From assembly GCF_054482525.1 (NCBI RefSeq), contig NZ_CM137006.1: a DNA stretch of 64,000 nucleotides; one strand, 5' to 3'. The notes beneath the pieces were generated by a model. It worked only from the letters and a program-made list of their open reading frames with translations. It was not told the origin of the DNA and did no database searches. A program made the translations under genes and the position numbers. This document shows positions 844-12,491 of this stretch, one piece after another; within the stretch, counting starts at the first letter, position 1; every line of letters begins with the position of its first letter.

Positions 844-1206
844 ATGTTTCTAAACTATTTCGCGTTGGGAGTGCTGATCTTCGTCTTTCTGGTGATTTTT
901 TATGGAATCATCGCGATACATGACATCCCTTATCTGATTGCCAAAAAGCGCAACCATCCCCATGCCGACGCTATTCATACGGCGGGCTGGGTGAGCCTGT
1001 TTACTCTGCATGTTATCTGGCCGTTTCTGTGGATCTGGGCGACGCTCTATCAACCGGAGCGTGGCTGGGGTATGCAGTCACATGTTGCGTCGCAGGAGAA
1101 AGCGACTGACCCGGAAATCGCCGCACTTTCTGACCGAATTTCCCGGCTGGAGCATCAACTCGCCGCCGAGAAAAAGACTGACTATTCCACGTTCCCGGAG
1201 ATCTAA
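844..1206 (+). CDS. yibI: DUF3302 inner-membrane protein
   Basis: 120-aa ORF with N-terminal hydrophobic segments; ATG preceded by GAGG; matches recalled YibI length and position next to yibH. Confidence 0.88.
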
Positions 1207-1208
1207 TT

Positions 1209-2345
1209 ATGGATCTATTGATCGTTTTAACTTACGTGGCGCTGGCGTGGGCGGTCTTTAAAATCTTCCGCATTCCGGTGAATCAGTGGACGCTGGCGAC
1301 GGCGGCGCTGGGAGGCGTGTTTCTGGTGAGTGGTTTGATTTTGTTGATGAACTACAATCACCCTTACACTTTTACCGCGCAAAAGGCAGTGATAGCGATC
1401 CCCATCACGCCACAGGTGACGGGAATTGTTACTGAAGTCACTGACAAGAATAATCAGCTTATTCAAAAGGGCGAGGTGCTTTTTAAACTCGACCCGGTTC
1501 GTTACCAGGCGCGAGTTGACAGACTTCAGGCTGACCTGATGACGGCGACGCATAATATAAAGACGCTGCGCGCGCAGCTCACTGAAGCGCAGGCCAACAC
1601 CACCCAGGTTTCAGCGGAGCGCGACCGTCTATTTAAAAATTATCAACGTTATCTGAAAGGCAGCCAGGCGGCGGTGAATCCGTTCTCGGAACGTGACATC
1701 GACGATGCGCGGCAAAACTTCCTCGCGCAGGACGCGCTGGTGAAAGGCTCGGTGGCGGAGCAGGCGCAGATCCAGAGCCAGCTCGACAGTATGGTTAACG
1801 GCGAGCAATCGCAGATTGTGAGCTTAAGAGCGCAACTTACTGAAGCAAAATATAACCTTGAGCAGACTGTCATTCGCGCACCAAGCAATGGCTACGTTAC
1901 TCAGGTACTGATCCGCCCAGGTACATACGCAGCTGCCTTGCCGCTACGTCCGGTGATGGTTTTCATCCCCGAGCAAAAACGGCAAATTGTCGCCCAATTT
2001 CGGCAAAACTCGCTGTTACGTCTGAAACCCGGCGATGATGCGGAAGTGGTGTTTAACGCGCTACCTGGGCAGGTGTTCCACGGCAAACTGACCAGTATTT
2101 TACCTGTCGTGCCAGGCGGTTCGTATCAGGCGCAAGGGGTATTGCAATCATTAACGGTCGTGCCCGGCACGGACGGTGTGCTGGGAACCATTGAACTGGA
2201 CCCTAACGCTGATATCGATGCCTTACCCGACGGCATCTACGCCCAGGTGGCAGTTTACTCCGACCATTTCAGCCATGTTTCGGTGATGCGGAAGGTGCTG
2301 CTGAGAATGACCAGTTGGATGCATTATCTTTATTTGGATCATTGA
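1209..2345 (+). CDS. yibH: HlyD-family membrane fusion protein
   Basis: 378-aa ORF, N-terminal TM helix then coiled-coil-rich region typical of HlyD/EmrA family; starts 3 bp after yibI stop. Confidence 0.88.
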
Positions 2346-2650: not shown

Positions 2651-2923
2651 ATATTTAATTTATAGATCACAATGTAGGTTCATGTAATATATGTATACAA
2701 CTATTTTTCTCTTCACTTTTAATTATCGTATTCATTATAACACTAAGTTAAAAAACTCCTGGAGAGTGAGTCATTAATATATTTTTAAATATAATTAAGT
2801 TATTATTCATCGATGCATTTTATAGAATCATCAATGGCTACAATAGTACTATTAACTCTCCAATTTATATTTTTATTATCATTGCAAATATTAACTGAAT
2901 CTATATCAATGATTTTTTTATTT

Positions 2924-3319
2924 TTATCTTTTATTTACAGTTTCAATGCAATCAGCGACAAGTTGGTGTGGATTTAGATTCTTCAGATATGGTCTTATGA
3001 TCTTTCCCTTGCTTAATAAATAGCATGTATAGGATTCGGAAAGTCCAGCATCTATTTTGTACATCATTATTCTAGATAAGGATGTGAGAAATGCCTTGTT
3101 ATCATTAGCAGCCATATATGCCAGTCCGAGTTCAGCCTCTGCGGCTTTACATGAAAAATAGCTAAGTGAACACGCTTTTCGTCCCTCTTGGGTACTGGCT
3201 GATATTAGTGCCCATAATATTGCCTTGTCTGCCAAATCCAACTCTCTCTGAAATTGGTTTACAGTAACTGCATTCGCAGAAATAGAGAAAAAAAGCACAA
3301 TTGTTAATAACCTTGCCAT
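2924..3319 (-). CDS. Orphan immunity-like protein for the adjacent Rhs C-terminal tip; predicted signal peptide
   Basis: 131-aa ORF starting ATG 5 bp after the Rhs-fragment stop; N-terminus MARLLTIVLFFSISANA looks like a Sec signal peptide; AT-rich codon usage. Confidence 0.6.
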   Translation of the reverse strand: MARLLTIVLFFSISANAVTVNQFQRELDLADKAILWALISASTQEGRKACSLSYFSCKAAEAELGLAYMAANDNKAFLTSLSRIMMYKIDAGLSESYTCYLLSKGKIIRPYLKNLNPHQLVADCIETVNKR

Positions 3320-3323
3320 ATTT

Positions 3324-4133
3324 CTAGTCCGTCACTGTTAATGTGCTATCTGGCTCTGAAAATATTAGCTCATTTAATTTTTGCATGTCATTAGATGAAC
3401 CAGTTATACAACCCTCGGAACAGAATCGAGGTCCTAAAGATGGACCAAAAGCGTTTAAACAACTATGTGTTAAAAATCCATCACGATTATACGTTTCTGT
3501 ATTTGCTGACGGTACTAAACGTATACCATTAGGTTTTCTATTAGTTGCTCCAGGACCATTAACATTCCAGCTCCATACCCCTGGAGGTATTGGGCCTCTA
3601 TTTTGTAAGTGTGTACAACCAGGATTATTTTTACATTGCATATTATTACCATTATTACCAGAGGCGACTGAAATAGTAAGCACACCATAAGAATTATCAT
3701 CACTTGGCGTATCTGAAACGCATGAAAGCATACCTAAAGTTATGCTGTATAAACAGGTCGCTAATCCCAACGGGTCAATATCAGTTATCGGATTCAACGG
3801 ATACTGATAAAAATTCCATCCCCCCTTCAGTCCAATCGGATCCTGAGTGATATACCGCCCCTGCAGCTGGTGCGGGTTCTCTTCATTCAGCAGGTTGCCC
3901 CACTCATCGTATTCTGCGCACCATTCTGTTGCCCCTTCCGTGCTGATAAGCACCAGCGGCAGGCCGCGATGGTCGCAGTGGTACAGGTGGATTTTTCGCG
4001 CCGGCGTGTACACCGGGTCCATCTGGTTTTGCATCTGCGCCACCGTCAGGCCGCACGATGCCAGCCAGCGTCGGCTTTCCTCACTCACCCGGTCAGCCAG
4101 GATTTCACTTTCCAGCCGGTCGAGCATCTGCAC
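3324..4133 (-). CDS. Orphan Rhs C-terminal fragment (core end plus divergent toxin tip); no own ATG start
   Basis: Translation [29 protein letters not shown]...[18 protein letters not shown] is near-identical to the rhsA core end in this window, then diverges after the DPxGL motif into a unique Cys-rich tip; ORF-track start is a GTG that is an internal Val codon in rhsA. Confidence 0.7.
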
Positions 4134-4174
4134 CGTGCCGGCGGGAATACCTCACTGTGCATAGGCAACTCACG

Positions 4175-5017
4175 CTATGAACGCTTCAGCTTATCAATAA
4201 CGGAAGTTATAATTTCATTGTCATCAAACTTGTACAACATAGTATCTAAAACAGGAAGTAGCGTTTTATCACCTAATTCACCCGCAGCTTCAATGATATC
4301 ATCATAAACAGTATTTTTTTTTAACTCATCGCATAAAACAGATAAAACCCTTTTATCTTTTCTGTAGGAAAGTCCGATTATTGCTTCAATACGGACTTCC
4401 TCATTTTTATCCTGAAGCATCTCCACAAAATAATCCCTAATATCACTATTATCATATTTATTGATATTTATTGCAAATGCGGCCCAGTTTCTGACATCTC
4501 CATTTGGATCTTTTAACAGATTAATCAATAGTGGAATTGTTTCTTTATCATTGATAACAGAAATAGCAAATGCCGTAGCACGTCTGACATTAGCCGATTT
4601 ATCAAAAGCAGTAATTTGAGATTGTTCTACTATTTTAGGTGAATAAATTGGGTTTTTCTTGCATCGCTGAGCAGTTGACTCGATTGCTGTAGCTCGAACG
4701 CAAGCACTTTTATCATTCAGTGCCATCTTTTTTAAAATATTAAAAACGCTATCTTCGCATTTTTTGCAAACTTTTATTTGCCCGAGTATAAATGCTCCTA
4801 TATCTCTACGGATATAATTTTTGTCAGCGCAGAATTCAATTGCCAATCTAACAGCGTCTTGCCCACCTCTTAGCTGCAATACTCTGGCAGATGAAATCCT
4901 TTTCAATGAATTGCGATTATCAAGTAAGCGAAATAATTCATCATCATTTAGTTTCTTACATTGATTGTATAAACCATACTCTTTACTTGCCTTTCTTTTC
5001 TGGTATGTATTCGACAT
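4175..5017 (-). CDS. yibA: HEAT-repeat protein
   Basis: Translation MSNTYQKRKASKEYGLYNQCKKLNDDELFRLLDN... matches recalled YibA (280 aa); GGAGG RBS 8 nt upstream of ATG at 5017. ORF-track start at 5032 is a 5-codon extension. Confidence 0.85.
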   Translation of the reverse strand: MSNTYQKRKASKEYGLYNQCKKLNDDELFRLLDNRNSLKRISSARVLQLRGGQDAVRLAIEFCADKNYIRRDIGAFILGQIKVCKKCEDSVFNILKKMALNDKSACVRATAIESTAQRCKKNPIYSPKIVEQSQITAFDKSANVRRATAFAISVINDKETIPLLINLLKDPNGDVRNWAAFAININKYDNSDIRDYFVEMLQDKNEEVRIEAIIGLSYRKDKRVLSVLCDELKKNTVYDDIIEAAGELGDKTLLPVLDTMLYKFDDNEIITSVIDKLKRS

Positions 5018-5121
5018 TGCAGGAACCTCCATAAAGACTATCTTTTTCTATCGTTTGACTGTCTGGAGTCCTCCACCTACTCTGCCATCAGCACACACGA
5101 TGTTTGTTTATCCTTACATAC

Positions 5122-5391
5122 TTATTTTCCGTGGCCAAAATTTAGAATTCTCCCGTCATTTTTGCCTATTTCTATAATAAAAACCCTACCAGCAATTTGG
5201 TCTGATTCAATGGTGCCTTCAACAATCCAACTTGTTGGTAATTCCATGATTTTGTATGGTTTTTCTTCTTCTTCTTCGGCATCATGTCCATAACGATTTT
5301 TAACATACATCTCAGCTAATTCCAATGCTATAGCTTTATTTTTGACCAAATTTCTAACGGTGTATTTCCCCTCACTTTCATACTTGCGCAT
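5122..5391 (-). CDS. Small NTF2-like (YbbC/YhhH-family-like) immunity-type protein
   Basis: 89-aa ORF, ATG start; shares KxxAxxLAExYxKxxYG...KPY...W.xEG...DG pattern with the 115-aa ORF at 6994..7341 and with Rhs-linked YbbC/YhhH proteins as recalled; no clear RBS. Confidence 0.5.
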   Translation of the reverse strand: MRKYESEGKYTVRNLVKNKAIALELAEMYVKNRYGHDAEEEEEKPYKIMELPTSWIVEGTIESDQIAGRVFIIEIGKNDGRILNFGHGK

Positions 5392-5472
5392 TATAATAAT
5401 ATTATTACACTGCGCCCATGTGTTGTATGTAAAAATAAAGATACAATCACATAGGTTCTGAATAATATTTTC

Positions 5473-5838
5473 TTATACGTTGTCATGTATTTTGCAAACA
5501 TTAGGCAATCCTTTTCCATTTATTATATCTTTCCCATGATTATCTATTGCTTTAAAATTTTCACCTATTGACCTTGAATTACTACAATCACTTCCAGTGA
5601 AATCTGAGTTATTCAGAATAGCATTCATCAGAGCCGCATTGCGAAAGACAGCATTTCTAGTTGATGTATGTTGAATCATTACATTTCTTAAATGAGTTTT
5701 TTCAAATTTCGCCCCATCAAGACAATAACCATTGAGGGTGGCACGATGTAGATTCATCCCGCTAAAATCATATCCAGCAAGAGTGGTACTATCTATCTCA
5801 AGAAATTTATTGGTTATTAAAAATGCGATTCTTATCAT
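5473..5838 (-). CDS. Pentapeptide-repeat protein (orphan immunity-like)
   Basis: Translation shows consecutive pentapeptide-like units (ATLNGYCLDGAKFEKTHLRNVMIQHTSTRNAVFRNAALMNAILNNSDFTGSD); first ATG at 5838 preceded by GGAGGA RBS; ORF-track TTG start at 5850 is probably an extension. Confidence 0.6.
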   Translation of the reverse strand: MIRIAFLITNKFLEIDSTTLAGYDFSGMNLHRATLNGYCLDGAKFEKTHLRNVMIQHTSTRNAVFRNAALMNAILNNSDFTGSDCSNSRSIGENFKAIDNHGKDIINGKGLPNVCKIHDNV

Positions 5839-5931
5839 CTGTTCCTCCAATCATCTAACTCCCGAAAAATTTGAAAACCAGAACCTCGCTTAGGCCTGTG
5901 TCCATACTACGTGGGTAGGATTATTCTACGT

Positions 5932-5974
5932 ACTACGCTGTTGTCCCTTACGTGCTGATAAGCGCCAGCGGCAG
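5932..5974 (-). repeat. Isolated ~43-bp scar homologous to the Rhs core-end coding sequence
   Basis: ...gctgttgtcccttacgtgctgataagcgccagcggcagg aligns to rhsA at about 8775..8817 and to the orphan fragment at about 3935..3966, with mismatches; flanks are unrelated. Confidence 0.5.
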
Positions 5975-6090
5975 GTTATTCGGTTTGCGTCGTTGAGTTC
6001 ACTACACTAAAACTCCGTGCCCATATAACCCAAGTCGGAGGCATGCCTTCCTCTGGTTCGTTCCATCTAAAATGTCTATACATAACATGG

Positions 6091-6333
6091 TTATTCAATT
6101 ATTTTTTCTTTGAGTTTATTCTCAATCCAGCTGTCTTTATACCTGATGAAAATTTGACATTCACCAATATTATCAATGTCACCAACATTTGTGTTTCGAA
6201 TTTGACCAACAGCAACTATAGTTGATTCAAAATATTCAACATTGACATTATCTGTAATTATTGAAATTATATAATCATCTGGAATAGAGCCATTAGGAGT
6301 TATATTGAAGAAACTAACATCTGAAAATACCAA
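6091..6333 (-). CDS. Hypothetical small protein (80 aa), possible orphan immunity gene
   Basis: Open frame with only a TTG start and no internal Met; AT-rich; lies downstream of a decayed coding remnant. Weak call. Confidence 0.3.
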   Translation of the reverse strand: MVFSDVSFFNITPNGSIPDDYIISIITDNVNVEYFESTIVAVGQIRNTNVGDIDNIGECQIFIRYKDSWIENKLKEKIIE

Positions 6334-6559
6334 ATAACCATCTTCTAAGTCTTCATTATCATAAAAATTCCATTCTGTTGTACCATAGGCTATCCTTGAG
6401 ATTAAATTAACCTGAATTCTAATTTGTTTACTCCATAAATCAAATTCAATTTTTTATTGCTCGATCACCAAGATATATTCTATCAAACATATTACCCCCC
6501 TATTCTAAAAATACTCAGGCATTCCGCACATTATATCAGCCTCATCTTGATTGCTTCCC

Positions 6560-6840
6560 GTTTCCCAATACGGCGGCGCGGGGAGTCATAAAGGTAAGAA
6601 ATTTCCAGCAGTACGGCGTCCTATTGTTCACGGCGGTAATGCACCAGCCAGTATTGGCTATCGTAGTGATAACCGTGTAACCTGCCGCCGCATCGCGTAT
6701 CTAATGTTCATTCTTTTCCATAAACCGTCCGTACACATTGTGATAGTAAAAATACAATACATCTTCGCTGATGCGGTTATTCTGCTGCATGTGGGAAGCG
6801 CCGAATACTGCTCCCGGTATGGCCAGTAATTACTATTTAG
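6560..6840 (-). pseudogene. Decayed coding remnant (possible orphan toxin-tip fragment)
   Basis: GC-richer patch in AT-rich DNA; minus-strand frames give protein-like stretches (LAIPGAVFGASHMQQNNRISEDVLYFYYHNVYGRFMEKNEH*, AGYTVITTIANTGWCITAVNNRTPYCWKF...) broken by stops; ORF-track 67-aa and 92-aa ORFs overlap here. Confidence 0.3.
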
Positions 6841-6993
6841 TACGACGTTAGGGGGAGTCACTTAATCTCACAGATACTTCAAGTAACAGATGAAAATCGC
6901 TCCTGAAATGAAAAAGAAATTTTTTTGAATGTGTTCCTGTCAAATCAAGTGGTTTTTTCGTCGATATGTAGAGTCATATTGTACACAAAATAG

Positions 6994-7341
6994 TTACGAA
7001 ACACACCTTGGTAAAATATTTGAATCGTCTGAACAGTGGATTATTTTGTGTATTACATCCAACGCTTGCCCATCTTTTTTCGCTATTAGTATTGTAAAAT
7101 TTCCTCCTAACGTCTTCGGTTGTTTTCCCTCGATTTTCCAACAATTATTGTCATCTGTAATACTATATGGTTTCTGAAATTCTGCTTTTTCTTTCCCGTA
7201 TATATATTTAATATAAACATATGATAATTCCAAAGCCATTTCACGACTATTTACTAAAATTTCCGCTGAATTTTCTTTTCCAAATACTGAGTGTGATATT
7301 GTAAACAATATCATAATAAGTAATATTAGTGAGTTTCTCAT
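6994..7341 (-). CDS. Secreted NTF2-like (YbbC/YhhH-family-like) immunity-type protein
   Basis: 115-aa ORF, ATG with AGGTG RBS; N-terminal signal peptide MRNSLILLIMILFTISHSVFG; shares motif pattern with 5122..5391. Confidence 0.6.
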   Translation of the reverse strand: MRNSLILLIMILFTISHSVFGKENSAEILVNSREMALELSYVYIKYIYGKEKAEFQKPYSITDDNNCWKIEGKQPKTLGGNFTILIAKKDGQALDVIHKIIHCSDDSNILPRCVS

Positions 7342-7509
7342 GCTCTACACCTATCGAATCTCAAAAGTTGTGGGTAAAACATTACATTCAGAATATATGA
7401 TATTCTTACCATCGGAATCCATTTTTCCAAATCGACCTTCTGGTGTTCCTGGATACCCATTAAGAACATATTTTTTCGAATAGTTAATTTATTTTCTCAG
7501 GAAGAGATT

Positions 7510-8079
7510 TTATTTTTCTTCACTACGAAGTAGTTCATGCTGTACTTTTGTTAAACATTCGTAAGACTCATCTTTGTTCGGGAGATGTGCTGTCATTCGA
7601 GCATAAGTTGGCTTCTCATCTTTAAAATATTTAACCATGATTGAATTATCAAGGACTGCCAACAACTGAGCTGGATCACTGCTCTTTTTTTGATAGATAC
7701 CCGCTCTTATATAACTTCTAAACCGATCGCCGAGAAACGCCGTTTTTTCTGCTGTATTTAGCAACTCCTGCAACGTTCCTTTGGTTGCATGATTTTCATT
7801 AAGGCGTAGTGATCCGACGCGAATTAAGAGTCTCGCCCCGCTTGGTGTGAATTTGTTATTTTTACATATACCAAGCTCTGTTTGCCAATAATACTCACCT
7901 ATGTCCTCATTCTGATACCATCTCCACATGGTTTTATTATTTAAGACAGGAAACGCGGAAAAAATAGTACCCTTAGTGAAAATGGTAAAGCAATCTTGAT
8001 CTTTAGCTTGTGTTTCGCAATTAGCTATAACACCAAAACTAACGAATATCATCAGCAAAAAGAACAAAGCTCTTTTCAT
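7510..8079 (-). CDS. Putative cognate immunity protein of RhsA (secreted)
   Basis: 189-aa ORF whose ATG overlaps the rhsA stop by 4 bp (8076..8079); N-terminal signal peptide [19 protein letters not shown]; AT-rich relative to the rhsA core. Confidence 0.65.
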
Positions 8080-11000
8080 TTTCTTATTCCTCTCGATGTT
8101 CTCTGTTTCATTTTAGCTAAAATTTCACCCAAATCATCTATCCCTGCTGTTGCTGGCCCATCGGGTTTATTAATGTCTGGGAATAAATAGGGTTCTGCAC
8201 AAGTATATCCTGGTGGTAATTGAGTTGTTGGCCAAGTTGTCTGTGGCAGGTAATCACTTGCTGTCTTTGTCTCCATCCCTGGATACTGGGGATCATCCTG
8301 CGGCGTACAAGTCAGATTGGGTTTTACCCACTTCCTGCAATACAGTGTGTAATCGTAAGGACTTAATGCTCTGAAGAATGTTTTGAAAACATTAGGCGCA
8401 CTACTGGCCTGGTCAATAGGATATGGCAGTCTTAATTGTTTCGCTATGTCTGGCAACTTACTTGGATCGGGCGTAGGCGGTTTGTTGGGTCTCGCTCCAT
8501 ATCCGCCATTATTTAAGTGTCCATATTTAGATGCCAGTCCCATTGAATCTATATACTGAACCGGATTTAACGGATACTGATAAAAATTCCATCCCCCCTT
8601 CAGTCCAATCGGATCCTGAGTGATATACCGCCCCTGCAGCGGGTCATAATAGCGGTGGCGGTTGTAATACAGGCCTGACTCCTCATCATACTGCTGACCC
8701 GGCAGGCGGATGAGCTGCTGCAGCTGGTGCGGGTTATCCTCACTCAGCTGGTTACCCCATTCATCGTATTCTGCGTACCATTCTGTTGCCCCTTCCGTGC
8801 TGACAAGCGCCAGCGGCAGGCCGCGATGGTCGCAGTGGTACAGGTGGATTTTTCGCGCCGGCGTGTACACCGGGTCCATCTGGTTTTGCATCTGCTCCAC
8901 CGTCAGGCCGCACGATGCCAGCCAGCGGCGGCTTTCCTCACTCACCCGGTCAGTAAGGATTTCACTTTCCAGCCGGTCGAGCATCTGCACCAGCACCGGC
9001 GGGAACACCACATCACCACCGTCTTCACCGCCGGACTGCTGAAGCGCATCCGCCAGGCTGCGGCGCTGCGTTTTCGCCAGCTCACCGGTGGCAGTTTCAA
9101 CTCTGATGAGTGGCGTGAAGCTCCCCGGCTGATAAACCGTCTGGATGCGGGTTCTGTCGTTCTGTATCGTGGTCAGCCGGTCGCCGTCCCAGCCGTACCA
9201 GGTCACTTCCGGTTTCCGTGACAGCGACATCCAGCCCGTCAGGTCCCGTTCACGCCGCCACACCCGTTTTGCCACCCTGCGGCCCAGCGGGTCGTAAAGA
9301 TAGCGACTTTCGACCAGCGGCTCTGCATATTGTGTCCGCGTGTAGTGCACCAGCCGGTGCTGACTGTCGTAATGGTACTGGTGAGTCCGCTCATCATCCG
9401 TGCGGATAACCCCTTCCGGGATGAGGTCGGTTTTCTCTGTCAGCCTGCCGTGACGGTCATACCGGTAAAGATAGTGCGCGTCACGGGCGATACGGTTATC
9501 CGGCCACATGCTGAGGGTGCTGTCCGGGTGCAGCTCCGGGTCGGGCAGGCGGTTACCTGCCGGGTCTGTGGCATACGGGATGCGGATATCAAGGTTCGCT
9601 GCCGTGGTGTGAACGCCGGTCAGCCTGCCGGAGTCGCTGTAGCTGTAACTCCGGGTCTGGCGCGGGCTGCTGATGCGGATGAGTTCGCCGTTGTCGTTCC
9701 AGGTGTAATCGCGGTCATACTGCAGGCTGTTCAGATGCTGGCTCTGTAACTGCCCGGCAGGGGTGTAAGCGGTGGTGAGTTCATAACGGCCGAAGCTGCG
9801 CAGCGTTTCCCGGTGCAGGCGGTCGCGGGTGAAATCCACCAGCGGTGTGTCGCCGAGTTTCATGCCTGACAGCCAGCCGCTGCCGTAGGTCAGCCATTCC
9901 ACGGCGGGCAGGCTGTCCGGTATACAGCGGTTCGCCAGTCCCTGCGCGTTGTAAGCGTGTCTGGTTTCATGCTGCCAGAGCAGTGCTTCCGTCTGCGGGT
10001 GATGCACCGTCTGGCGCTCACCGGTCAGGCGGCCTTTCTCATCATACCCGTAATGCACCGTCACCCGGTGGCCTTCGCTGAGATGGCTGATTTGTGTCAG
10101 CCAGCCGCGTTCGTCATACTGCCACTGCTCTGCCGGTTCACCCTTCACGGTGCGGTGAGTGAGGCGGTCTGCTTCGTCATAGTGCCAGTGGGTGACCAGC
10201 CCCTCATCCTCGCTGCGGATAAGTTTGCCGGTCAGGTCGTGGTGATAACGCTGTGTGCGGCCGTCAAAGCCGGTTTCCTGTATCAGCCGGTCAAGTACAT
10301 CGTAACGGAAGGTGGTGTGGCTGCCGTTTTCACTGGTCAGGCGGATGACCCGTCCGGCAGCATCGTATTCCATACTGCGCGTCAGACCGCCCTGCGTGGT
10401 ACGGATGGCCTTTCCCCACGCATCGTACTGTGTCCCGTTTCTGCTGCCGTCCGGGGCAATGACGGCGGTCAGGTCACCGGCGGCGTTGTATTCATACCGC
10501 GTTTCATGGCCCTGCATGTCTTTCACCGCAATTAACTGTCCACGGCTGTCGTATGCGCGGTACTGGCTCAGGCCTTCCTCGCGGTGCACCGCCGTCACCT
10601 GACCAAAACGGTCATGGTCATAACGGGTTACATAACCGGAACAGTCAGTGACGGTCAGCAACTGACCGTAACGGCTCCATGTCATGGTTTTCCGGCTGCC
10701 GGTGGCATCCTCCGTTGCGCAGGGTAAGTCACTGTGTGGATTATCATAACGGTAGCGGGTGATATCGCCGTCAGGGGCAGTTTCCTGAATCAGACGGCCG
10801 GATTCATCATATTCCCGGCGTATTTCCAGCCCGTCAGTCCCGGTGGCTGACGTTAACTGGCTGTGGTGGTTATAGTAAAACGCCGATGCCCTGCCATCCG
10901 GCGTGGTGATGCGCGTGATGAGGCCCGTCACCACATCCGGGCTGTATTCTGTTGTCCGGCCTGCGGCATCCGTCTGTGCCTTAAGCCTGCCCACCGCATC

Positions 11001-12263
11001 AAACTGACTCTGCGTGACGCTGCCGTCCGCGTGTTCCTTTTTCACCACCCGCTTCAGCCCGCCTTCGCCCTGCGTGTGCAGCACTTCACGGCGGTCCAGA
11101 CTGTCGGTGATGGTGATGCGGTCTTTCTCATACTGATACGTGTAGCTTAAGCCTGCCGGGTTTAGCTGCTCTGTCACCCGCCCGTCGCTGTCGTAACGGT
11201 AACGGATTTCCGGCCGGCCCGTGTGACGGTGCGCCACCATCCGGCCCCGGTATTTATCATCGTAAGTAAAGCTGCGCACCTGTGTATTGCTGCGGTCATA
11301 CACCGCCGCCAGTTCGCCGCGCGGCGTCCAGCCATAGCGTACCAGCGGCGCGGCTGGCAGGTTATCCGGATATTCCGGGTCGTGCGTCAGCCACACGGCA
11401 GACAGACGGATGCCGTTGTCCCGGCCATATTCGGTGTAACCCGGCAGGGTATCAGGAAAAGCGGACGGTTCCGTCCCGCCGGAAATGGCCTGCTGCCGGG
11501 CTTCTTCTGCCCGCTGCGCCTGCGTGGTCAGTACCAGCCGGAAGTGACGCCCGGCACCATCCGTCACGCCGCTGAATTCGCCGCCAGCCTCACGGTGGAA
11601 CGTCTGTGTGCGCCCGAAGCGGTCCACCAGCCCGGTCAGTACCCGGTACGGCGGCAGCGGCGCAGGCAGCACCTCATCCGCCTCCGGCACCCGCTCACAC
11701 CAGCCGAGTACCCACCACGGCCCCTGCGGACTGTTCGTCGCCAGATAACGATGCGGACTCAGGCGAAGCTCTTCCGGCAGCGCCTGCCAGAGTGCGGCCA
11801 GCCGGTGACCTTCATCCAGTTTCGCCACGCCGCCACGCACCAGCCAGAGTGACTCGCTGCGGCTGTAACCGTCCTCACCGGGAAACAGGTGCTCAAAATA
11901 CAGGCTCCTGCCGCCGTTATCACTGAGTATCAGTGTGTTATCGCGCAGCTGTAAGCGGATATCCGCGGGCATTTTCCAGCCGGGGCCGAGGCTCCCCACC
12001 GGCGCGGGCGTTTTTGTCCGGTAACTGCTGTAGGTGCGGGAGAGGATGAACGGCAGCGGGCCGGGCAGGGCAAGGTCGGTTTCGCCGGGAAGGACCTTCG
12101 CGCCGAGCAGCGGATTGACCGGATGGCCGGACGTCACCCCGCCGGGGCACACCGAACAGGCCACGCCGGTGGGGGCACCGATGCGCACCCCGGCTGAACC
12201 CTGAACAATGCTACCGCCATACTGCGTCATGTCGCCCTGACGCGCCGCCGGTTTTCCGCTCAT
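8076..12263 (-). CDS. rhsA: Rhs-family polymorphic toxin: PAAR-like N-terminus, YD-repeat core, variant C-terminal tip
   Basis: 1395-aa ORF beginning [29 protein letters not shown], repeated YD/RY motifs, conserved [15 protein letters not shown] near the end followed by a ~170-aa proline-rich tip; sits beside yibF as rhsA does in K-12; GC-rich core. Confidence 0.95.
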
Positions 12264-12491
12264 CTGCTCATCCTTGTTTTATCGGGTTATTTGTCTGCTG
12301 ACAGGCGAAACCCTACAGATTTATAAGAAAGCCTTAAGTGAGATATCTGTCAGATAAGAACAATTAGGAAAATATTTATATCACCATGATAAATATCTGA
12401 TTTATTGGGAGGTAACAAACCATCAACATTTTCTGCCCTTTTTCCCATCACCAGGCCATACTGATATTTTTCCTCGCACAAAGGACTCGGC

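What the first reader, a model, noticed from the sequence alone, without database searches (positions are those of the whole stretch)
5932..5974. Isolated 43-bp Rhs core-end scar with no adjoining Rhs sequence
A short stretch matching the rhsA codons for ...LALVSTEG... (with several mismatches) sits alone about 90 bp upstream of the pentapeptide-repeat gene, with unrelated sequence on both sides. It looks like the eroded stump of a former orphan module and supports repeated recombination at this locus.
Basis: seen in the sequence. Interest (0 to 1): 0.35.

Follow-up and report, generated by a model that had tools for sequence, protein, structure and literature searches.

The report
IS3-truncated stump of orphan Rhs module
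The short Rhs-like stretch is real: it is the first 18 codons of a silent spare toxin cassette that other E. coli strains still carry whole, cut off here by an insertion sequence, and it is an ordinary, non-functional relic.

Summary
Observation confirmed and widened. Window 5922..5975 (54 bp, minus strand) matches the main rhs gene at 8767..8820 (47/54) and the downstream orphan at 3910..3963. The score is 15-24 SD above shuffles and the BLAST E-value is 3e-9. It encodes LPLALIST*, with an in-frame TAA, and lies in the middle of the Pfam RHS motif, about 83 codons before the core end rather than at it.

The flanks are identifiable. The left flank, about 5854..5923, is the last 64-70 bp of IS3 (orfB tail plus right inverted repeat). 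The right flank, 5976..6090, is the conserved 3' flank of a DUF6258 immunity gene.

The same right-hand junction (GGCAGG|TTATTC) occurs in three forms among 5426 complete E. coli genomes:
- An intact orphan module (core fragment, toxin tip, yibG) in 34 genomes.
- A 74-bp stump cut by an ISAs1/H-rpt end in 213 genomes.
- This 54-bp IS3-cut stump in 272 genomes.

The stump is therefore the 5' start of a former yibJ-like orphan module, truncated by IS3 and then by a deletion that removed most of IS3. Its longest exact match to a live core is 16 bp, so it is probably inert. I found no RNA family, terminator or significant promoter. This is a known kind of relic of low interest.

The parts
5922..5975 (-). 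Rhs core stump: the first 18 codons (LPLALIST*GTTA*YVE) of a former orphan rhs core fragment, with an in-frame TAA. The TA at 5922-5923 could belong to either the IS3 terminus or Rhs.
   Evidence: orthologous to L002 7001..7054, where it continues into an intact orphan
5854..5923 (+). IS3 right-end remnant: the last ~12 codons of orfB (stop TAG at 5891..5893) plus IRR. The terminus is GGATTA, against GGATCA in intact IS3. Homology clearly begins at 5860 and is weaker over 5854-5859.
   Evidence: 62-63/70 identical to the IS3 copies in L005/L006; the IS3 end at L006 2064 corresponds to window 5923
5976..6090 (-). Conserved spacer downstream of the DUF6258 gene. Its lower-coordinate end, at 5976, is the native junction (GGCAGG|TTATTC) with the start of the orphan core.
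   Evidence: 115/117 identical to L002, 114/117 to L003
6091..6490 (-). DUF6258-family orphan immunity gene. Its native ATG is at 6490. A 2-bp deletion in an A-run near 6455 shifts the frame, and RefSeq calls a 119-aa ORF at 6091..6450.
6505..6562 (-). 3' stump (last ~18 codons plus stop, ...TGSNQDEADIMCGMPEYF*) of the Rhs toxin tip that is cognate to DUF6258 in L002
5565..5838 (-). Truncated pentapeptide-repeat gene: the first ~91 of ~160 codons. It keeps its own RBS at 5845..5849, about 15 bp from the IS3 remnant.
5473..5564 (-). Last 29 codons of a K-12 RhsB-type toxin tip, fused in frame to the pentapeptide fragment. The chimeric ORF spans 5473..5838.
5122..5501 (-). yhhH-like NTF2-fold immunity pseudogene (frameshifted). 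It is the cognate partner of the RhsB-type tip remnant.
8767..8820 (-). The matching segment in the main rhs gene (8076..12263), used as the reference copy for the stump
3910..3963 (-). The matching segment in the surviving downstream orphan rhs fragment (3756..4156), which precedes the tlde1-domain gene

Best explanation
The 54-bp element is a dead relic. It is the 5' beginning of a yibJ-like orphan rhs module (core fragment, toxin tip, immunity gene) that once lay directly downstream of a DUF6258 immunity cassette in an E. coli clade-I rhs element. Shown: the right-hand junction is the native start of the orphan, and the left-hand junction is the right terminus of IS3. Inferred history: (1) C-terminal displacement left an orphan whose core homology started at codon LPLAL. 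(2) IS3 transposed into that core fragment 52-54 bp from its start, or made an IS3-mediated adjacent deletion ending there, with its right inverted repeat facing the stump. (3) A later deletion removed about 1.19 kb of IS3 and everything beyond it. This joined the last 64-70 bp of IS3 to a point 15 bp upstream of a truncated pentapeptide gene, which is itself fused to the tail of an RhsB-type toxin. (4) Point mutations followed, including GAA to TAA. The stump has no start codon, no toxin tip and no cognate immunity gene. Its longest perfect match to a live core is 16 bp, so it probably no longer takes part in the core-core recombination that reactivates orphans. It does nothing, and it only records how a silent toxin cassette was lost while neighbouring immunity genes stayed.
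For: Homology and statistics.
Locus identity: the window is the rhsA site between yibF and yibH, 100% identical to NZ_CP151009.
Allelic series at one junction: an intact orphan in L002 and 34 genomes; a 74-bp stump abutting an ISAs1/H-rpt end in L003 and 213 genomes; and the 54-bp stump with the IS3 remnant in 272 genomes, including rhsB-locus copies L004 and L010.
IS3 identity and orientation: window 5860..5921 hits the 3' end of annotated IS3 in thousands of records. The transposase CDS ends 30 bp before the IS end in L005/L006. The IRL and IRR sequences and a 3-bp ATT target duplication were read in L006. Identity is 62-63/70.
Living analogue: strain YZLc4-1 has an intact 1258-bp IS3, in the same orientation and with an ATA duplication, inside a yibJ-like orphan core fragment 146 bp further along.
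Decay: an in-frame TAA, and 7/54 differences from L002 against 2/117 in the adjacent flank (Fisher p = 0.005).
Longest exact matches are 16 and 13 bp.
No Rfam hit and no terminator, and promoter-like sites are not above the shuffle expectation. The RNA fold is no better than shuffles (z = +1.3).
Dissociated tips, including core fragments with no associated tip, are described for rhs loci in PMC2935791.
Against: No genome in the collection has a complete IS3 at exactly this site (0 of 5426 cover 80% or more of a synthetic IS3-plus-stump query), so the insertion step is inferred from the junction alone. The IS3 terminus reads TA rather than CA and overlaps two bases that also fit Rhs. A deletion endpoint 2 bp inside IS3 therefore cannot be excluded. 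The left end of IS3 is gone, so no target-site duplication can be checked. The identity of the lost tip (yibJ-like, as in L002) is assumed from the shared junction, not seen. The claim of recombinational inertness rests on the published minimum homology of about 23-27 bp for RecA-dependent exchange in E. coli (my own knowledge, not tested here). Against it, the window and L004 haplotypes differ by a divergent patch whose left breakpoint (~5962) lies inside the stump. That shows the stump can be crossed by an exchange when it is part of a longer homologous tract.
Confidence: 0.87

Rival explanations
1. Chance resemblance: a random 40-50-mer that happens to look like an rhs core segment.
For: The segment is short and has 7 mismatches in 54 bp.
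Against: E = 3e-9 within the window. z = 15-24 against dinucleotide shuffles. The orthologous position in other strains continues into a full orphan rhs frame.
Confidence: 0.01
2. The stump was made by plain illegitimate deletions with no IS3 transposition at this point. IS3 sat elsewhere in the array, and a deletion happened to end at or 2 bp inside its right terminus.
For: The terminal dinucleotide is TA, not CA, and is shared with the Rhs sequence, so the junction could be GGAT|TATTCT. No full-IS3 intermediate was found. The inner IS3 break at ~5854-5860 is certainly a plain deletion.
Against: A random endpoint falling within 2 bp of a 1258-bp element's terminus is unlikely. IS3 does insert into orphan core fragments in the same orientation in living strains. 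A second IS family (ISAs1) cuts the same fragment 20 bp further along in another lineage.
Confidence: 0.08
3. The stump, or the stump/IS3 junction, is retained because it functions. It could act as a hybrid promoter for the chimeric pentapeptide ORF, or as a short homology pad that guides incoming rhs tips.
For: A weak sigma-70-like site, GGGACA-16-AATAAT, spans 5947->5920 on the minus strand and points at the pentapeptide ORF. That ORF keeps its RBS and is open in 272 genomes. A haplotype breakpoint lies inside the stump.
Against: Promoter-like sites number 8 against 5.6 +/- 2.1 expected, and this one matches only 9 of 12. There is no Rfam family, terminator or stable fold. The stump accumulates substitutions faster than its flank, and the L004 type has a 4-bp deletion in it, which argues against constraint. 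The longest perfect match to live cores is 16 bp.
Confidence: 0.03

Closest known systems
Dissociated rhs tips and tip-less core fragments downstream of rhs genes (C-terminal displacement model, Jackson et al. 2009, PMC2935791)
   Same: It is a partial core repeat lying in the AT-rich array downstream of a full rhs gene. It belongs to the same clade as the upstream core, is non-coding and degenerate, and has lost its tip. [quoted passage not shown]
   Different: It is far shorter, at 54 bp. Its truncation can be assigned to a specific agent, an IS3 end, rather than to the recombination breakpoint that the model proposes.
yibJ(rhsJ)-yibG type orphan module of the E. coli rhsA locus, as in FDAARGOS_946 (L002)
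   Same: The upstream junction with the DUF6258 flank is identical, and the first 18 codons are the same (47/54 nt).
   Different: L002 keeps the remaining 78 core codons, the PVINVDPQGL boundary, a ~160-aa tip and the yibG immunity gene. The window keeps none of these.
ISAs1/H-rpt-truncated 74-bp core stump in the rhsC locus (ETEC1749, L003; 213 genomes)
   Same: It has the same DUF6258 cassette, the same junction and the same kind of relic. RefSeq annotates it as an incomplete 'RHS domain-containing protein' pseudogene.
   Different: It is cut 20 bp further into the core and by a different IS family, so it is an independent event.
IS3-interrupted orphan core fragment in strain YZLc4-1 (L017)
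   Same: IS3 is in the same orientation inside the 3' core region of an rhsA-locus orphan.
   Different: There IS3 is complete (1258 bp, ATA duplication) and both halves of the orphan survive. The insertion site is 146 bp further downstream, at main-gene position ~8623-8626.

Membership tests
Rhs core, 3' region (Pfam PF03527 'RHS protein' motif; E. coli clade-I core) | Nucleotide or protein homology to the conserved core of the adjacent full-length rhs gene | tested here: met
   47/54 nt identical to main 8767..8820. PF03527 maps to main 8739..8849.
Rhs core, 3' region (Pfam PF03527 'RHS protein' motif; E. coli clade-I core) | An open reading frame continuing to the DPxGL core boundary | tested here: not met
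   There is an in-frame TAA at codon 9, and homology ends after 18 codons at the IS3 terminus.
Orphan rhs-CT/immunity module (core fragment + toxin tip + immunity gene) | A core fragment homologous to the upstream main core, lacking the N-terminal part and a start codon | tested here: met
   The stump starts at the same nucleotide as the L002 orphan, which has no ATG at its start.
Orphan rhs-CT/immunity module (core fragment + toxin tip + immunity gene) | A variable toxin tip following the core boundary | tested here: not met
   An IS3 remnant follows the stump directly. The RhsB-type tip tail at 5473..5564 is separated from it by the pentapeptide fragment and belongs to another module.
Orphan rhs-CT/immunity module (core fragment + toxin tip + immunity gene) | A cognate immunity gene immediately downstream of the tip | tested here: not met
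   There is no yibG-like gene downstream. The next genes are the pentapeptide chimera, a yhhH-like pseudogene and yibA.
IS3 (IS3 family insertion sequence), for the left flank | A terminal inverted repeat and adjacent orfB 3' end matching IS3 | tested here: met
   62-63/70 identical to the right ends of IS3 in L005/L006. The terminus aligns to within 0-2 bp.
IS3 (IS3 family insertion sequence), for the left flank | orfA/orfB transposase genes and a left inverted repeat | tested here: not met
   Only about 12 codons of orfB remain. Sequence to the left of ~5854 is the pentapeptide RBS and gene.
IS3 (IS3 family insertion sequence), for the left flank | A 3-bp target-site duplication flanking the element | not testable with these tools
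   The left end has been deleted. Duplications were seen only in the intact copies L006 (ATT) and L017 (ATA).

The most novel reading that the evidence does not exclude
The 3' core region of silent orphan rhs modules might be a preferred or selected target for IS-mediated disarmament. The same orphan start is cut independently by IS3 at 54 bp and by ISAs1 at 74 bp, and another orphan carries a live IS3 146 bp on. Together with the two toxin 3' stumps in this array, that would mean lineages repeatedly lose spare toxins while keeping immunity genes. It could also mean the stump/IS3 junction now supplies a promoter for the conserved chimeric pentapeptide-RhsB-tail ORF.
Probability: 0.07. Interest if true: 0.35.

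Novelty: already known. Interest (0 to 1): 0.1.

Why it matters
It matters very little beyond annotation. It gives a clean worked example of how rhs arrays decay, with one junction captured in three states across 519 complete genomes. It shows that insertion sequences, and not only core-core recombination, prune orphan toxin cassettes and leave orphan immunity genes behind. RefSeq leaves this 54-bp stump unannotated, although it annotates the 76-bp sister stump as a pseudogene. The stump/IS3 junction could serve as a lineage marker.

Tried and rejected
- Searched for a full-IS3 intermediate with a synthetic query made of the IS3 tail, the stump and the flank. No genome covered 80% or more of it.
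- Scanned one genome per species for the native junction 22-mer GCGGCAGGTTATTCGGTTTGCG and got no hits. No evidence for the junction outside E. coli was obtained.
- Looked for closer full-length relatives of the pentapeptide fragment to find its native upstream context. The word-based search found only the E. coli chimeras. The exhaustive HMMER search found ~160-aa standalone relatives at 44-56% identity, in contexts unrelated to Rhs. The donor remains unknown.
- Tested for a functional RNA, terminator or promoter and found nothing above background.
- An early coordinate slip of 10 bp made the stump look like 62 bp. It was corrected to 54 bp by recounting against (notes 1-2).
- Considered hypermutation as the cause of the stump's excess divergence. 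Mosaic ancestry explains it better: all 7 differences lie in 5924..5961, while 5962 onwards belongs to an L002-like DUF6258 patch.

Full report
**Where we are.** The window is the rhsA site of an E. coli chromosome, between yibF/selA and yibH/mtlA. Window 2800..8200 is 100% identical to NZ_CP151009.1. All rhs-related genes read on the minus strand. In transcriptional order they are:
- the main rhs gene (8076..12263, 1395 aa);
- a ybfC-like 189-aa gene (7510..8079);
- an NTF2-fold immunity gene (6994..7341);
- a DUF6258 gene (6091..6450/6490);
- the finding (5922..5975);
- a pentapeptide ORF (5473..5838);
- a frameshifted yhhH-like NTF2 gene (5122..5501);
- yibA (4175..5017);
- an orphan rhs fragment (3756..4156) with a tlde1-domain tip (3324..3731) and an Imm57 pseudogene.

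**Observation.** The similarity is real.
- blastn-short finds 5938..5975 matching 8783..8820 and 3926..3963 at 35/38, E = 3.3e-9. Everything else is 11-15 bp noise at E = 3.
- Local alignment extends the match to 5922..5975 against 8767..8820 (47/54) and 3910..3963 (46/54).
- In the core frame the stump reads LPLALIST*GTTA*YVE. The main gene reads [18 protein letters not shown] at about aa 1149-1166.
- This lies inside the Pfam RHS motif PF03527 (main 8739..8849). It is about 83 codons upstream of the DPIGL core-boundary motif, so 'core-end' is imprecise.

**The flanks.** A distant-mode search of 5839..6095 against 5426 complete E. coli genomes split the query into two parts.
- Bases 5860..5921 hit the 3' end of annotated IS3 in thousands of records.
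- Bases 5922..6095 hit loci annotated 'RHS ... | DUF6258 family protein'.

In the intact IS3 copies L005 and L006, the transposase CDS ends 30 bp before the element's end. I read the IS3 termini (TGATCTTACCCAGC... and ...CGTGGGTAGGATCA) and a 3-bp ATT duplication in L006. The window aligns to the last 70 bp of IS3 at 62-63/70. The orfB stop falls at 5891..5893 and the terminus at 5923, reading GGATTA where IS3 has GGATCA. The Rhs homology begins at 5922-5924, so the two elements abut with a 2-bp ambiguity. IS3 reads forward on the plus strand. Its body would therefore have lain to the left, where the pentapeptide gene now begins only about 15 bp from the break.

**The right junction is native.** In FDAARGOS_946 (L002, also the rhsA site), a main rhs is followed directly by DUF6258. 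The same 116-bp spacer follows, and then, at the same nucleotide (GGCAGG|TTATTC), an orphan begins. Its frame is open from [14 protein letters not shown] through DPIGL and PVINVDPQGL into a ~160-aa tip, and yibG follows. Window 5922..6562 matches L002 at 96.7%.

The junction exists in three states:

| State | Example loci | Genomes |
|---|---|---|
| Intact orphan | L002 | 34 |
| 74-bp stump abutting an ISAs1/H-rpt end, in rhsC-locus arrays | L003 | 213 |
| 54-bp stump with the IS3 remnant, at both the rhsA site (window type) and the rhsB site next to nikR | window, L004, L010 | 272 |

**How it arose.** The junction states are observed, and the order of events below is inferred.
1. C-terminal displacement left a yibJ-like orphan behind a DUF6258 cassette. 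This is the model of PMC2935791, which also notes core fragments without tips.
2. IS3 entered the orphan core fragment 52-54 bp from its start, or made an adjacent deletion ending there.
3. A later deletion took out all but 64-70 bp of IS3, together with the rest of the orphan.
4. Point mutations followed.

No genome holds a complete IS3 at this exact site. However, strain YZLc4-1 has an intact 1258-bp IS3 in a yibJ-like orphan core fragment 146 bp further on. It has the same orientation and an ATA duplication. The process is therefore observed in living strains.

**Is it doing anything?** Probably not.
- There is no Rfam match at E <= 1 and no terminator-like site.
- Promoter-like sites number 8 against 5.6 +/- 2.1 expected. 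The one spanning the junction (5947->5920) matches only 9 of 12 positions.
- The RNA fold is no better than shuffles (z = +1.3).
- The longest perfect matches to the live cores are 16 and 13 bp. That is below the ~23-27 bp usually needed for RecA-dependent exchange in E. coli (my own knowledge, not tested here).
- The stump differs from L002 at 7 of 54 positions, against 2 of 117 in the adjacent spacer (Fisher p = 0.005). All 7 differences lie in 5924..5961.
- Window-type and L004-type haplotypes are nearly identical outside 5962..6560 but differ by about 9% inside it. One of them has therefore exchanged the DUF6258 cassette, with a left breakpoint inside the stump.
- The L004 type also has a 4-bp deletion in the stump.

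None of this suggests constraint.

**The surrounding graveyard.**
- The 'pentapeptide gene' is a chimera. About 91 codons of a ~160-aa pentapeptide protein (relatives P0021 and P0062) are fused in frame to the last 29 codons of a K-12 RhsB-type tip, which is followed by its yhhH-like immunity pseudogene.
- Window 6505..6562 keeps the last ~18 codons of the toxin that is cognate to DUF6258 in L002.
- DUF6258 itself has a 2-bp deletion near 6455.

Toxin genes have thus been lost three times in 1.1 kb, each leaving a short stump, while immunity genes remain.

**Comparison and verdict.** This is a known kind of object: a dissociated, tip-less rhs core fragment. It fails the defining tests for a functional orphan module because it has no tip, no immunity gene and no open frame. 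The left flank passes only the terminal-repeat test for IS3. The finding is ordinary, so interest is low.

Noticed in passing
window 5473..5838 (-): The 121-aa 'pentapeptide' ORF is a chimera. Its N-terminal ~91 codons come from a ~160-aa pentapeptide-repeat protein and are fused in frame to the last 29 codons of a K-12 RhsB-type toxin tip (GENFKAIDNHGKDIINGKGLPNVCKIHDNV*). The ORF is open and keeps its RBS in ~272 genomes. The donor of the pentapeptide part was not found (nearest full-length relative 56% identical, in a context unrelated to Rhs).
   Followed up: partly
window 6505..6562 (-): This is the last ~18 codons plus stop of the Rhs toxin tip that directly precedes DUF6258 in L002. It is a second toxin 3' stump, left beside its orphan immunity gene.
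   Followed up: yes
window ~6450..6456 (DUF6258 gene, native ATG at 6490): A 2-bp deletion in an A-run, relative to L002, shifts the frame after about 13 codons (MFDRIYLGDRAIKN*). RefSeq annotates a shorter 119-aa ORF from an internal start. The Pfam match begins at profile position 22 of 136, which is consistent with N-terminal loss.
   Followed up: partly
window 5962..6560 versus L004/L010: Window-type (rhsA site) and L004-type (rhsB site, next to nikR) arrays are about 99% identical on both sides but about 9% divergent across the DUF6258 cassette. The left breakpoint lies inside the Rhs stump. The same 8.4-kb composite (window 3861..12264, 97.4% identical) sits at two different chromosomal rhs sites in different strains.
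   Followed up: partly
window 4671..5559 versus L008 (K-12-like rhsB locus) 1142..2034: The yhhH-like gene followed by the yibA/HEAT gene is syntenic (91%) with the K-12 rhsB-yhhH-HEAT-pseudogene arrangement. This links the window's rhsA-site array to rhsB-locus history.
   Followed up: no
L003 6914..6981: A perfect 34-bp tandem duplication (TACAAAAAGTGAACTTCTGATGATCTTTCCCTGG x2) lies at the ISAs1/H-rpt end that abuts the 74-bp Rhs stump in the rhsC locus of ETEC1749.
   Followed up: no
L017 6008..7265 (strain YZLc4-1, rhsA locus): An intact 1258-bp IS3 with an ATA target duplication splits a yibJ-like orphan core fragment. It is a present-day example of IS3 insertion into the 3' core region of an orphan rhs.
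   Followed up: yes
window 5947..5920 (-): A weak sigma-70-like site (GGGACA-16-AATAAT, 9 of 12) spans the stump/IS3 junction and points towards the chimeric ORF. It is not above the chance expectation.
   Followed up: partly
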